A stretch of DNA of 64,000 nucleotides from positions 46,872,001 to 46,936,000 of the forward strand of contig OZ024742.1 in NCBI GenBank assembly GCA_964016885.1, written 5' to 3'. The notes beneath the pieces are model-generated. The model searched no databases. It saw only the letters and a list, made by a program, of their open reading frames with translations, and was not told where the DNA came from. Shown here piece after piece: positions 4,596-60,040 of this stretch (its first letter is position 1; each line of letters begins with the position of its first letter). The DNA is from Eledone cirrhosa. Its lineage: Eukaryota. The position numbers and the translations under genes were made by a program.

Positions 4596-4971
4596 TACAA
4601 TATTAAATAAATGGAAACTATATTTATAAAACCATATTTATTTCATTATATATATTTCAGGGATATCATATTAACAATATGCTATGCCTTCCTCAGACAA
4701 AATACAATATAAACAGTTTTATAGATAAATAGATTCGACATACCGTAACAACATCGACTTGTATTTGAAAAGGTTGATTTGGTACCAAATCAACCTTTTC
4801 AAATACAAGTCGATGTTGTTACGGTATGTCGAATCTATTTATCTATAAAACTGTTTATATTGTATTTTGTCTGAGGAAGGCATAGCATATTGTTAATATG
4901 ATATCCCTGAAATATATATAATGAAATAAATATGGTTTTATAAATATAGTTTCCATTTATTTAATATTGTA
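4596..4971. repeat. 376-bp perfect spacer-less palindrome (PLE pLTR fragment plus inverted copy; tail to ~5057)
   Basis: Centre GGTACC at 4781-4786; I saw no mismatch between arms; flanked by (TA)n; one hammerhead per arm. Confidence 0.9.
4863..4928 (+). ncRNA. minimal type-I hammerhead ribozyme H1 (mirror copy 4639-4704, minus)
   Basis: TATTTTGT-CTGAGGA-AGG..CCT-GAAA-TATATA-TA-ATGAAATA; stem I has two G-U pairs; AATAAA overlaps the 3' strand. Confidence 0.75.
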
Positions 4972-5815
4972 AATATACTCCAAATATTTGTCGAGTGCTT
5001 TTATATCAGTTATAAATATTTACTAGTTGTAACCCAACAATTTAAATATAACTTTCCATATATATATATATATATATTTATATATATATGTATATATATA
5101 TATACTTGTGTGTGTGTATATATATATATAGAGAGAGAGAGACAGATATATATAGATATATACACACACATATATATATATATATATATATATATATATG
5201 CGTGTATGTATGTAATTGTCTATAGTTTTGTGTGTATGTTTATGGACTTGCTTGTCAGTAGATCGATATACCTGTCAACAAGGTTCTCTCACGGGCTTTA
5301 TTTCTTTCATTTATTTCCTATTAAATGTTAAGCATGTAATTATTGGCTGTCCTCTTTAATTAATTGAATTCAGTAATACAAATAATGTCGATTTTATATT
5401 AAAAAAAAAGTACTTTGATTAGATTTAATTTTATTACAGACATGTGTTCAATATATGATCAATAAACTTGGACTTGATACACGTTGAGGGTATTGATTCG
5501 AAACCGAAATGACATCCGATTCACCTCAAACCATTCCTTAAACACGTAGAATGAGTTAACTTATTAATAGTCTGTTTAGCTACTTTCCTTAGTCTTTTAT
5601 TTTTAAATAAATGTTTCCAAAGTACTTTACTACATTTTTTTCCTTCAGTTAGTACAAAAAAAGTAGAATGCTCCGAGGTGAAAACATTTTCCCATTCTTT
5701 TTTATTGATCTTCTCTAATTAGTAAATTCATTTCCCCTAGATAAATCTACCCAAATTATCCAGACGTTCACGCAGTCAACCACACCTACACCCACAAATA
5801 CACACACACACTCCT

Positions 5816-6058
5816 ATACATATATATATATATATATATATATATATATATATATATATATATATATATATATATATATATATATATATATATATATATA
5901 TATATATATATATATATATATATATATATATATATATATATACATATATATATATATATATACATATATATATATATATATATGTATATATATATATATA
6001 TATATATATATATATATATATATATATATATATATATATATATATATATATATATATA
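5816..6058. repeat. (TA)n microsatellite (many similar tracts, e.g. 4485-4557, 12238-12323, 13901-13963, 20440-20514, 29416-29563, 46145-46215, 50100-50168)
   Basis: Directly visible. Confidence 0.95.
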
Positions 6059-56814: not shown

Positions 56815-59800
56815 TACTACTCCTCTATCTCGCCCATAGTCCTGAACAAGGCACTCATATTCGCGATGAATAGGACAGACCTAACGCGCGACGAGGTCCG
56901 AATCATACACGCCGCCAGAAAGACACTGATCTGATTCGGTCGGGACATATGGACCCGGAGTGACTGGCCAAATAATTTTGATATTACAATGGGCTCCAGT
57001 AACTCCGCACAGCTAACGGACTTGGTTGGGATATACATACTCTACGAGATCAAGAGCGGAATACCCAAACTGGGTGATGGACTGTACCGAGACGATGCAC
57101 TCTTCACCGTCGTGGACTACAACACCACAATGGTCGCAAATATGAAGAGGAGAATTAGACACTTCTTTACCAAGATAGGACTTAAAGTAGAGATGGAACC
57201 CAATAGAAAAGTAGTGAATTTCCTGGACACCACTCTCAACCTCAACACCAAGCTACACCATCATATTATAAACCCAATGAGAAGCTGGTGTATATCAACG
57301 CTGGGTCCAATCACCCTAGATCTATAGTTAAGGCTGTAGTTAAGAGTGTCTCTGACAGGATCTCTAACTTGTCTGCCAATAAAGAGATCTTCAATAGCAA
57401 TGCTGATTACTATAACTCAGCGCTAGCTAAGGCGTCCCACAGCCATATGATCAGCTATAACCCTAAGGGACATGATCGAGATGACCCAAGGGTACCCCGG
57501 GCCAATACCCTCAGGGGCATGAGTCGCCCACCTAATACCTCGGTGACCAGTAGTAACACTCCCAGACCCCTATCCATCACCACCCCCGATAGAAGGTCCC
57601 GCATTCCCCACCCGTCTAATGCAACAACGCTGAAGACCACTGCTGTGCGGAGAATAGGCACCCCTGCACCGACACCACCACCCGCTGAACCCTAATTGAG
57701 CAGGGAGGCCGCACCGCGCAGGTTTATAGCCCCACAGTGGGTCCGTATAACCCTCATGATAGTGACCGCTACGCACACCTGAATGACACCAACGGAGCTC
57801 GACCTGAGCTGTGCACAACCACGCGATGGACCACGGCGGACACCCAACAACCCCGCAAGAATAGGACCAGGAAGGTCACATGGTATAACCCCCCGTACTC
57901 GGTGGGTCTACGTACAGCCTGGCTAGAACATTCTTTAGAGTACTGGATAAATGTTTCCCTAGGGCCCACAAGTACCATAACATATTCAACAGGCACACGG
58001 TGAAACTTTCCTACTCGACCACACGCTCCCTAGCCCAGCACATAGCCGGCTTAAATAGGAATAGGCTCACTGCCTCTAATACCACCGTAAACCCCGGAGC
58101 CACCCAACAGAACCAGCACGCAGGACGCACCAGACCCCGGAGTGGCCCAACTAGCACACCGGAACCGAACGACCCCATGCTGATTGCGGCGGCTACCCAG
58201 CCAACCCCGAGTGATGGTAACCACGCGGTACATGTGATGGGGCTTAAGAAATCATGCAATTGCAGAGACCCATCACTATGCCCCCTTAGTAATGAATGCA
58301 TGATGAAAAACGTATTCTACAGGTGCAAGGTCACAACCGCTAACTCGGAGCACCACTACATAGGACCCACGGCGACGTGCTTCAAAGATAGGTGGTATAA
58401 CCATCGCCATTCCTTTAACAGAATAGAAAAGATGAAATGTACGGCCCTTTCTGAATTGATCTGGAAGATCAAACTTGAAAAAAACCCGCGCTCTCTGGTC
58501 TGTTCCGTGGTTAGAAAGGTTCCCCTCGACAGAGGTGGGTCTGGTATTTGCAACCTCTGTCTTAGTGAGACACTCGAGATACTTCATGGCAGAACCAAGC
58601 TATTAAACAGAAGGACCGACTTATTCGGCGCCTGCAGACACCTAAGGACGGGAACTTTCCTCAAGCTATATGGATAAACCCCGGTTATGGCCTCCCACAA
58701 CGCCCCCCCCCCCTATGTAGGTCCCCAACACCCCGTACCAATGACCAATAGACAATAACAACCACCCATAGTTTGTGGTCCCTACCCTACGGTGGATTGT
58801 CAACCGGATCCTCTACTGGTTAGGTGTCAACAAAACCACGTTTATTGAACCTGAGGAACCCCCCACCCCGGGAGTCGCCCACACAGGAAGAACAATTATC
58901 CGAAGGTACTAACCCTATACGCATGAATGAGTGCCCACAACCGTACATTGTGTGTGTATACTGGGATTACGTGAATGCACACACTCATGTGAACGCAACG
59001 AAATACTAATACCCCAGGTTGCATTTGAAAAATGTTCGAATGTATGCTTAAGGGTATATTTGTATATGCTCTCTCGTATGAGTGCACATGTGTATATAGA
59101 CATACACGCGCATCCAGAGGTATAAAAGTGTGGGTGGGTATATATGTCTGTACTAAGGGATTCGCCTAAGCTCCAAATCCCCCAAGCTATTGCTGTGAAG
59201 ATATATATCACACTCTACTTTTGTCTAGTCTAAACAATAACTCTTCCAAACACCCACTTTACTTTTCTTTAAAAATAACACCCACCTAGTTTTATGTCTG
59301 CCATATACTTGGATTTGGCGGCCTCTGTTGTATATATATATGCACTTGTGCGTACATATATATATATATACACACCTGTATGGATTTGTGTGTGTAGATA
59401 TGTGTGTGTGTCTGAGGGGGCGGGTGTGAATGTATGTACAAGTCATCCAAAATAAGTCTTTTTATTTCTAAACTTTCTAAGTATTTGACTCTAACCATTA
59501 TTTTCAGTATTACCACCCCAGATTCCTCAATGTGTATGTGTGGATGTGTGTGTGTGTATGTGGGGGTGGGTGTGAGTGTACGTGCAAGTCAACCAACATA
59601 AGTCTTTTTATATGTAAATTTTCTAGTATTCTACTCTAACCATAATTTTCAGTAGTACCACCCCACATAAATTCCTCAATTTAAGAATGACATGTATTGA
59701 ATTTTGTGAAAATCAGTCATATGGAACTATTGTCATCTTGCCTGACAGTTTGAACTTTACAACACCACCTGCCTCTATGAGGTCAAATACCAACCCTACT

Positions 59801-60040
59801 AGCATCTACAAACTGACCAATGAGAATTAAGATTATTCTTGCTGACAACATTAAATTATTCCTAACAAGCTCATATGTCCCAATGCTCTGATACCATCAA
59901 CACCATAAACACAGAGCTGGCATATCTAAGAACTGACTAACTGCCTGATGAGGTCATAGCCATTCAATGGCTATCATCGAAATATATATAGCAGTAAATA
60001 AAGCATTATGAGTTCATGCAATTGACTTATGTTTCGTCAC
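56815..60040 (+). mobile_element. GC-rich Naiad-type PLE copy C (5'-truncated, frameshifted; coding to 58677)
   Basis: FDITMGSSNSAQ, YRDD, NFLDTTL, SNHP, WYNPPYS, CNCRDPSLCPL, YIGPT, CNLCLSE, CRH; (TA)n at both ends. Confidence 0.88.
59940..59995 (+). ncRNA. hammerhead H10
   Basis: ACTGC-CTGATGA-GGTcATAGCCAT tca ATGGCTATcATC-GAAA-TATATA-TA-GCAGT then AATAAA. Confidence 0.9.

What the first reader, a model, noticed from the sequence alone, without database searches (positions are those of the whole stretch)
4639..59995. Sixteen intact-core minimal hammerhead ribozymes from nine families in 64 kb
Seen: CTGANGA..GAAA-stem III-TH closed by stem I at 4639/4863, 6282/7616, 12591/13547, 16372, 28047, 28568/29111/29268, 43481/46254/49905, 51269 and 59940, plus core-mutated copies at 16714 and 17174. 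Stem III is nearly always self-complementary (TATATA, CCATGG, TGATCA, CTAATTAG, TGCGCA, CCG.CGG). Stem II is often expanded to 50-100 nt. AATAAA overlaps or follows stem I in H1, H4, H8 and H10. Known: PLE pLTRs carry minimal type-I hammerheads whose palindromic stem III favours dimeric cleavage. Inference: an unusually dense and diverse ribozyme set, with long stem II variants that standard models may miss.
Basis: partly seen in the sequence, partly recalled or inferred. Interest (0 to 1): 0.75.

Follow-up and report, generated by a model that had tools for sequence, protein, structure and literature searches.

The report
Penelope hammerheads with elongated stem II
The sixteen hammerhead motifs are real and sit at the ends of broken Penelope-like jumping genes, a known home for these likely self-cutting RNAs; four families have one arm two to four times longer than in any of the related Penelope elements compared here, and three of them are predicted to brace that arm with an extra base-paired knot.

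Summary
All 16 sites exist; 14 pass a full type-I descriptor (shuffles: mean 0.05 sites). They are 9 families at about 9-10 insertions of Penelope-like elements (PLEs), doubled by head-to-head inversions and partial tandems ending at (TA)n. Three families follow Hydra-type coding remnants. Hydra PLEs, including an octopus one, are already published with hammerheads, and this scan noted similar PLE motifs in other genomes. 'Minimal' is the wrong label: only the dead 17174 copy is a min-HHR. Only 4 of 16 copies have a same-strand partner. Three things go beyond print as searched. (1) The core-to-GAAA spacer is 50-100 nt in four families, against 12-27 nt in 42 relatives; a model built from those relatives matches none of these 7 copies in full. 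(2) In H3, H7 and H9 the 5' flank complements a stem II internal loop, a predicted pseudoknot with different sequences each time. (3) Two of three partial tandems start within 6 nt of the predicted cut. An eleventh family (15387, core-mutated) was missed. Cleavage and expression are untested, and genome-wide density is unknown. Verdict: new variant of a known kind.

The parts
4639..4704 (-). H1a hammerhead (C3 4696, spacer 31 nt, stem III TATATA); left arm of a 372-nt perfect head-to-head palindrome 4598-4969, ending 49 nt past the cut site at (TA)n
4863..4928 (+). H1b hammerhead (C3 4871), right arm with a longer 3' tail
6282..6328 (-). H2a hammerhead (C3 6323); core intact, stem III broken by an extra TA
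6980..7411 (+). C-terminal GIY-YIG remnant with a CX4CxxC linker, mirrored on the - strand at 6535-6966; parent of H2; not Hydra-type
7616..7660 (+). H2b hammerhead (C3 7621, spacer 18 nt, bulged G plus G-C pair, stem III GGAC not palindromic)
12591..12677 (-). H3a hammerhead (C3 12672, spacer 58 nt, CCATGG), in the inverted arm 12324-12964
12975..13241 (+). Upstream partial repeat of the H3 unit (period 658 nt); begins 5 nt 3' of the predicted cut site
13541..13633 (+). H3b hammerhead (C3 13552) with predicted pseudoknot 13541-13545 : 13565-13569
15344..15392 (-).
16372..16429 (-). H4a hammerhead (C3 16425, spacer 31 nt, U.U at the base of stem II, TGATCA); a second core start lies 29 nt upstream at 16454
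16714..16771 (+). Inverted H4 copy with C3A change
17174..17209 (-). The only true min-HHR (2-nt palindrome in helix III, bulged nt, G10.1-C11.1); core changes U4C and A6U; about 610 nt 3' of a PLE ORF
17814..20438 (-). PLE ORF: RT plus GIY-YIG, DKG motif, CCHH-type nuclease; abuts (TA)n at its 5' end
26893..27126 (+). Hydra-type nuclease C-terminal remnant upstream of H6
   Evidence: (best E 8e-9)
27847..28064 (+). SINE-like insert 27865-28046 with an 18-nt target duplication that copies H6's stem I strand and first core half; a second copy of the insert lies at 38-225
28047..28179 (+). H6 hammerhead (C3 28054, spacer 100 nt, stem III CGATTG here and CGATCG in most other copies)
28568..28661 (-). 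H7a hammerhead (C3 28648, spacer 55 nt, CTAATTAG); downstream unit of a 543-nt direct dimer; pseudoknot strand 28656-28661
29111..29204 (-). H7b hammerhead (C3 29191) with predicted pseudoknot 29199-29204 : 29171-29176
29261..29351 (+). H7c inverted copy (C3 29273); starts 12 nt before C3; stem I only 3 bp
43479..43549 (-). H8a hammerhead (C3 43541, spacer 36 nt, TGCGCA; the predicted cut falls inside AATAAA)
44559..46108 (-). 5'-truncated Hydra-type RT-nuclease ORF upstream of H8a
46252..46322 (-). H8b hammerhead, same strand as H8a, 2773 nt upstream
47019..48902 (+). 5'-truncated Hydra-type ORF with one internal stop; CxCX5C linker, CxxC and CxH motifs
49903..49973 (+). H8c hammerhead, 1.0 kb 3' of the ORF stop
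50874..51063 (+). Upstream partial repeat of the H9 unit (period 464 nt); begins 6 nt 5' of the predicted cut site
51263..51348 (+). H9 hammerhead (C3 51274, spacer 50 nt, CCG-T-CGG) with predicted pseudoknot 51263-51267 : 51289-51293
56833..58677 (+). Frameshifted Hydra-type RT-nuclease remnant upstream of H10
59940..59995 (+). H10 hammerhead (C3 59945, spacer 27 nt, TATATA), 50 nt before (TA)n

Best explanation
These are type-I hammerhead motifs at the 3' terminal repeats of truncated Penelope-like retroelements inserted at (TA)n tracts; they likely cut the element RNA, mostly as same-family dimers through their palindromic stem III, and in three long-stem families they are predicted to dock stems I and II with a 5-6 bp pseudoknot.

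Shown: the motifs, the inverted and tandem architecture, and Hydra-type coding remnants upstream of H6, H8 and H10.

Inferred: (1) The polymerase's fold-backs and slippage lengthened loop II into a hairpin that points away from the core. H3's apical hairpin is a tandem duplication of a near-palindrome. (2) In H3, H7 and H9 the first internal loop replaces loop II and pairs with the 5' flank. (3) These three ORF-less 464-658 nt units are copied in trans, like retrozymes. [quoted passage not shown] Most copies at this locus have no same-strand partner and are probably passengers.
For: Motif excess over shuffles. Head-to-head inversions, partial tandems, tails and (TA)n ends match PLE structure in Craig 2021. 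CxCX5C linker in H8 and H10, and a homologue consensus with RWxA and DKT.

Relatives: 55 of 70 testable Hydra-like loci carry such a motif downstream of the nuclease.

Stem III self-duplex is -1.7 to -11.3 kcal/mol against +0.4 to +5.6 as a hairpin for the 16 copies.

Other copies of H6 carry the perfect palindrome (2456 of 2516 reads in X13, and the same in X1, X4, X5), T opposite an unpaired A at 28072, and T-A where the window has the C28086-G28133 pair.

Pseudoknot complements GAGCA/UGCUC, GAGAAU/AUUCUC and GGAAA/UUUCC have local P 0.009, 0.006 and 0.008. In H9 the strand lies free in a 12-nt bulge of stem I.

Partial tandems start at +5 (H3) and -6 (H9) from the cut.
Against: No cleavage or RNA data. 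Frangieh 2024 found hammerhead cutting dispensable for PLE insertion in vitro and no reads ending at the site. G10.1-C11.1 is present in only 2 of the 9 intact families.

One majority difference in H6 (28096) breaks a predicted pair, and only 40 of 292 differences were shown. In H3 the free fold uses the pseudoknot pairing to exclude stems I and II (-19.2 against -11.9 kcal/mol). In H7b the same flank can pair with the 3' flank instead. H6, the longest, has no such complement, and 42 short-spacer relatives show no excess at 4 bp (3 seen, 1.8 expected).

H9's repeat starts upstream of the cut, which a clean cut does not give; H7's dimer starts far from it; inverted copies of H4 and H7 start 12-13 nt before C3 instead. 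H1, H3, H4, H7 and H9 have no coding remnant, so their clade rests on architecture alone.
Confidence: 0.82

Rival explanations
1. The long-stem families cut efficiently as monomers. Two or three pairs plus a small loop in stem III, helped by the pseudoknot, are enough, and the palindrome is a leftover.
For: Stem III here is the 2-bp-plus-tetraloop type that Cervera 2020 call similar to invertebrate hammerheads; it gave 22% monomer cleavage in an axolotl repeat. H9 and H7 have the least unfavourable hairpins, +0.4 and +1.5 kcal/mol. Only 4 of 16 copies have a same-strand partner.
Against: The palindrome is kept in 8 of 9 families and is more perfect in most H6 copies than in the window copy. 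In one search dimers cut much better than monomers.
Confidence: 0.3
2. Stem II growth is neutral junk and the flank-loop match is an off-switch or chance. The motifs fold into inactive states and matter little for retrotransposition.
For: 3' UTRs here are inflated in general: 0.7-1.3 kb to the motif against at most 0.55 kb in relatives, with tandem duplications. Alternative folds exist for H3 and H7b. Cutting is dispensable in the anole element.
Against: The same geometry (flank 1-2 nt from a 5-bp stem I, paired to the 5' strand of the first internal loop) recurs with three different sequences. The core is intact in 9 of 11 families. H6 shows a double change that keeps a pair.
Confidence: 0.25
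3. The motifs are chance matches in AT-rich palindromic DNA, or the palindromes are assembly fold-back artefacts.
For: The H1 arms are 100% identical over 372 nt.
Against: Shuffles give at most 2 sites. Other arms differ by 1-4% and have unequal tails. H6 and H7 sequences occur in four public runs, one from a second organism label.
Confidence: 0.01

Closest known systems
Hammerheads of Hydra-clade Penelope-like elements (Craig et al. 2021, PMC8557442, File S2; includes Hydra-1_Obim from Octopus bimaculoides)
   Same: Type I, near the 3' end, (TA)n targets, palindromic stem III of about 7-8 nt, frequent mismatch at the base of stem II, A-rich signal after stem I in some.
   Different: Published Hydra spacers reach about 26 nt by my count of File S2, and 42 metagenome relatives span 12-27 nt. 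Here 6 of 9 intact families exceed that (31, 31, 36, 50, 55, 58 or 100 nt by family, H1/H4 sharing 31). 6-nt even palindromes dominate here (1 of 42 in relatives). No pseudoknot is mentioned in the passages read.
min-HHR of metazoan PLEs (Cervera and De la Pena 2014, PMC4209133)
   Same: pLTR location, opposite-strand pairs 100-700 bp apart, many divergent families per genome, dimer model.
   Different: min-HHRs lack loop 3 and have a bulged nucleotide plus G10.1-C11.1 with helix II of 7-8 bp. Only the dead 17174 copy fits the helix III and helix II base features.
Pseudoknot-stabilised hammerheads (Perreault et al. 2011, PMC3088659)
   Same: Base-paired contact between the stem I and stem II regions, reported for all three types and needed for fast cleavage.
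   Different: There the partner is a terminal loop or tail; here it would be an internal loop under an added hairpin, in an animal retroelement.
Non-LTR retrozymes (Cervera 2020, PMC7229834; Li et al. 2026, bioRxiv 10.64898/2026.07.22.740005)
   Same: ORF-less tandem units with a type-I hammerhead, proposed to derive from PLE pLTRs; fits H3, H7 and H9.
   Different: Units are 464-658 nt against about 300 nt. Only H7 has two whole motifs. Inverted copies and (TA)n ends are PLE-like. No circular RNA evidence here.

Membership tests
Type I hammerhead ribozyme | Core C3-A9, G12-A14, A15.1-U16.1, H17 | tested here: met
   16 of 16 listed sites
Type I hammerhead ribozyme | Three helices around the core, stem I open | tested here: met
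   14 of 16 pass with stem I of 4 bp or more; 6282 fails stem III, 29268 has a 3-bp stem I
Type I hammerhead ribozyme | Self-cleavage after H17 | not testable with these tools
   No assay; no raw RNA run was available to lay
min-HHR (Cervera 2014) | No loop 3; helix III reduced to the core and a palindromic 15.2-16.2 pair | tested here: not met
   4-8 nt between A15.1 and U16.1 in all 16; met only by the core-mutated 17174 copy
min-HHR (Cervera 2014) | Bulged nucleotide after A9 plus G10.1-C11.1 | tested here: not met
   Both present only in H2 and the 17174 copy; H10 has the pair without the bulge
Hydra-clade PLE (H8, H10; H6 by remnant) | CxCX5C linker before a C-terminal GIY-YIG domain | tested here: met
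   Found in the H8 and H10 ORFs; the H6 remnant starts downstream of the linker
Hydra-clade PLE (H8, H10; H6 by remnant) | CxxC and CxH around conserved E and N; no CCHH | tested here: met
   C245, C248, E251, N264, C273, H275 invariant in 13 of 13 aligned proteins; absence of CCHH read by eye
Hydra-clade PLE (H8, H10; H6 by remnant) | RWK and DKT motifs in the N-terminal region | tested here: inconclusive
   Window copies are 5'-truncated before them; RWxA and DKT appear in the homologue consensus
Hydra-clade PLE (H8, H10; H6 by remnant) | Placement in an RT tree with named Hydra elements | not tested
   Reference sequences were only read in the paper's supplement
PLE insertion architecture | 5'-truncated inverted copy, partial tandem, optional tail, (TA)n target | tested here: met
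   Inversions in 6 of 9 intact families, direct repeats in 4, (TA)n 43-272 nt past the cut
Non-LTR retrozyme (H3, H7, H9) | No protein-coding capacity | tested here: met
   No ORF of 120 aa or more and no tblastn hit with 33 PLE protein queries in these units
Non-LTR retrozyme (H3, H7, H9) | Two or more tandem units each with a whole hammerhead | tested here: inconclusive
   Met by H7 only; H3 and H9 are partial tandems
Non-LTR retrozyme (H3, H7, H9) | Circular monomer RNA | not testable with these tools
   No raw RNA reads
Pseudoknotted hammerhead (Perreault 2011) | 4 or more bp between a stem II loop and sequence next to stem I | tested here: met
   5, 6 and 5 bp in H3, H7 and H9; absent in the other 7 of 10 families examined
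Pseudoknotted hammerhead (Perreault 2011) | Covariation or mutational rescue of the pseudoknot | tested here: inconclusive
   Sequences differ between families but window copies within a family are identical there; one search listed no change at H7's strands among the 40 rows shown

The most novel reading that the evidence does not exclude
A distinct class of animal retroelement hammerhead: loop II has been opened by a 25-80 nt inserted hairpin, and stem I-stem II docking has been rebuilt as a Watson-Crick pseudoknot. It rides on 460-660 nt ORF-less units whose upstream repeats begin at the cut site. That would be a genomic footprint of in vivo cleavage setting the 5' end of a PLE template, which earlier work looked for in RNA and did not find. 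Family-specific stem III palindromes would act as barcodes so that each family activates only its own kind, and short-spacer descriptors would have undercounted these ribozymes.
Probability: 0.3. Interest if true: 0.65.

Novelty: new variant of a known kind. Interest (0 to 1): 0.42.

Why it matters
What hammerheads do for Penelope-like elements is still open: Craig 2021 call their role unclear, and Frangieh 2024 found cutting dispensable in vitro. High-copy families whose 5' truncation points can be counted against the cut site make the question testable from genome data alone. Long-spacer, pseudoknotted forms would also show that published censuses with short descriptors undercount these ribozymes. 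The basic association, the palindromes and the dimer idea are already known.

Tried and rejected
Rfam: no hammerhead family to E 5 on the window, to E 10 on H2b, H10 and H9 alone, or at gathering score on 13 of 78 related loci. The miss is therefore not due to long stem II.

No whole genome is held, so density and copy number are untested. Summed depths are not copy numbers. No RNA holder listed. Runs with small shares that I did not lay (X6-X12) are not used.

Extended stem I beyond chance: only H1 (16 of 500 random flanks as good); the other 10 of 11 motifs were not distinguishable from random.

A loop-flank pseudoknot in short-spacer relatives: 16 of 42 at 3 bp (18 of 500 permutations reach it) and 3 of 42 at 4 bp (128 of 500), so not claimed.

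Link to Naiad 'half-core' motifs: rejected by eye, because in the two octopus Naiad consensus ends read GAAA lies upstream of CTGATGA.

Cores at 7982, 27854, 54567, 55027 and others lack the rest of the motif. A two-mismatch, 113-nt-spacer hit at 11869 is treated as chance. Strand-switch joints at 28047-28051 coincide with the edge of homology and are not used.

Pair counts on the 41 aligned relatives (94% paired) are circular, because the descriptor chose them. Lunse 2017 and Arkhipova 2017 are not held, so long-stem or pseudoknot variants may be described there. bioRxiv supplements were not seen.
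Full report
OBSERVATION. A scan of both strands lists every CTGANGA. A descriptor allowing a spacer up to 120 nt found 14 of them plus a duplicated core at 16454. In 200 block-wise dinucleotide shuffles the mean was 0.05, and 0.34 when stem II and palindrome terms were dropped. The descriptor was relaxed after I had seen the sites. Two copies are damaged outside the core: 6282 has an extra TA in stem III and 29268 has a 3-bp stem I. 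A search allowing two core mismatches recovered the mutated copies at 16714 and 17174 and found a missed family at 15344-15392. BLAST of the ten motif regions against each other gave only short hits of 14-66 nt, which I read as shared TA-rich flanks.

CONTEXT. The window is eukaryotic repeat DNA with LINE, mariner-like and PLE remnants. The host is not given. It looks octopus-like from the SINE-like insert and the microsatellites, but that is recalled, not tested. Self-BLAST shows why there are 16 sites: H1, H2, H3, H4, H7 and H8 are head-to-head inversions, and H3, H7, H8 and H9 have direct repeats. The units end at (TA)n 43-272 nt past the cut site, often with one longer tail. This matches the PLE structure in Craig et al. 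2021 (PMC8557442: passages, section 11 and supplement parts 2 and 24 read). The 16 sites reduce to 9 families at about 9-10 insertions. Only H7a/b (543 nt apart) and H8a/b (2773 nt apart) have a same-strand partner. In a head-to-head pair one copy is antisense on any read-through RNA and would pair with the other (inference).

CLADE. H8 and H10 follow truncated ORFs with the CxCX5C linker. Their 27 homologues (11 aligned with the two window proteins) show RWxA, DKT, CxxC and CxH, the Hydra-clade marks. A Hydra-type nuclease remnant lies upstream of H6. H2 follows a nuclease with a CX4CxxC linker. The dead 17174 motif follows an RT-GIY-YIG ORF with DKG. Craig's File S2 already lists hammerheads for Hydra elements, including one from Octopus bimaculoides, and calls them canonical. 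By Cervera and De la Pena 2014 (PMC4209133, first two of four parts read) a minimal hammerhead lacks loop 3, so only the 17174 copy deserves that name.

COMPARISON SET. A metagenome scan returned 78 loci, the best of 417 relatives. Of the 70 with at least 150 nt downstream, 55 carry the motif; the 42 distinct motifs have spacers of 12-27 nt under a scan that allowed 130. The window's ten families (nine intact plus the missed one) have 18, 20, 27, 31, 31, 36, 50, 55, 58 and 100 nt (rank test P 5e-5; neither set is phylogenetically independent). A covariance model from 41 relatives finds 7 of 9 short-spacer copies at E below 0.1 and H1 only at E 4. It matches none of the 7 long copies in full; H3 appears in part at E 4.8. 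Spacers near 50 nt are listed for two spike-moss PLEs in File S2, so long stem II is not without precedent. AATAAA at stem I occurs in 5 of 10 window families and 12 of 42 relatives, so it is a clade trait. Its role, poly(A) signal or tertiary contact, is untested.

OTHER COPIES. Four runs were laid on 28040-28921: 4011, 121 and 82 contigs and 14,127 of 12.5 million reads fit, across all identity bands, so H6 and H7 are multi-copy families, also present under a second organism label. X1 may be the source sample. Where the window's H6 departs from most copies, three of four changes inside the motif favour the model. These are the stem III palindrome at 28169, T at 28072 opposite an unpaired A, and T-A in place of the C28086-G28133 pair. 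The fourth, at 28096, breaks a predicted pair. For H7 the majority base at 28635 extends stem II as in H7b and H7c. Only 40 of 292 differences were shown, so this is not a covariation test.

PSEUDOKNOT. In H3, H7 and H9 stem II opens into an internal loop after 4-7 bp. In each, the flank 1-2 nt upstream of a 5-bp stem I is complementary to the 5' strand of that loop: GAGCA/UGCUC, GAGAAU/AUUCUC, GGAAA/UUUCC. Local chance is 0.009, 0.006 and 0.008; the product stays near 1e-5 after allowing 16-fold for my choice of strand, flank and families. Pseudoknots between the stem I and stem II regions speed cleavage in other hammerheads (Perreault 2011, PMC3088659, passages and section 7 read). By eye, the spike-moss PLE-X1_sMoe row of File S2 has a similar 5-bp match. 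Against it: H6 lacks the match; H3's free fold uses the pairing to exclude the active fold; and H7b's flank can pair 3' instead. Five other families share a C.C or C.U mismatch at the fourth position of stem II (H1, H4, H6, H8, H10), a second possible docking site that I did not test.

MECHANISM. Stem III is unfavourable as a hairpin and favourable as a self-duplex. That fits the dimer model reviewed in PMC6765202 (passages), though similar stems give partial monomer cleavage (PMC7229834, passages). The upstream repeats of H3 and H9 start at +5 and -6 from the cut. H7's dimer does not, and the inverted copies of H4 and H7 start 12-13 nt before C3, as an earlier unchecked note from this scan reported for another genome. 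Two of three is a lead only. Frangieh 2024 (PMC11167929, first part and passages) found cutting dispensable in vitro. I therefore take these as likely functional at the family level and mostly idle at this locus. H3, H7 and H9 resemble PLE-derived retrozymes (Li 2026, first part and passages).

NOVELTY. Five searches (listings, plus passages of PMC13725137) showed no paper on long-stem or pseudoknotted hammerheads in animal PLEs. Lunse 2017 and Arkhipova 2017 could not be read. The association, palindromes, dimer model and an octopus Hydra hammerhead are in print. The 50-100 nt spacer with a predicted pseudoknot is a new variant of a known kind; interest 0.42.

Noticed in passing
window 27847-28064 and 38-225: A SINE-like element with a tRNA-type box inserted into H6; its 18-nt target duplication copied the first core half and left the ribozyme whole downstream.
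   Followed up: partly
window 11379-12060 (+): Hydra-type nuclease remnant ending at (TA)n with no intact hammerhead; a short core-like string near 11937 may be a deleted motif.
   Followed up: partly
window 61003-61422 (+): Decayed Hydra-type RT remnant with no nuclease or hammerhead found downstream.
   Followed up: partly
window 6060-6209 and 9668-9812: A 150-nt direct repeat between (TA)n tracts, next to H2's left arm; possibly a separate small element or a tail.
   Followed up: no
window 27255-27609, 43644-44063, 49398-49810, 59384-59680: Each Hydra-type 3' UTR holds a diverged 150-210 nt tandem duplication (about 80% identity), and the UTRs are longer than in the metagenome relatives.
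   Followed up: no
window 28787-28832: A short GC-richer stretch in H7's spacer recruits about ten times more reads than its neighbours; possibly a promoter module shared among repeat families.
   Followed up: no
window 23827-26893, 31806-36793, 36981-42465: Three diverged copies (70-80% identity) of a two-ORF LINE with a CCHC knuckle and RT; the first is cut at 26893 where the H6 element begins.
   Followed up: no
window 16425-16454 (-): A second core start 29 nt upstream of H4a's core can use the same GAAA, giving an alternative 60-nt spacer.
   Followed up: no
window 7632-7655 (+): H2's stem III GGAC would self-pair through tandem G.A mismatches rather than as a palindrome; many relatives also have mismatched centres.
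   Followed up: no
PMC8557442 supplement part 24: Two octopus Naiad consensus ends have GAAA upstream of CTGATGA inside a GC-rich stem, a permuted arrangement that may merit its own look.
   Followed up: no
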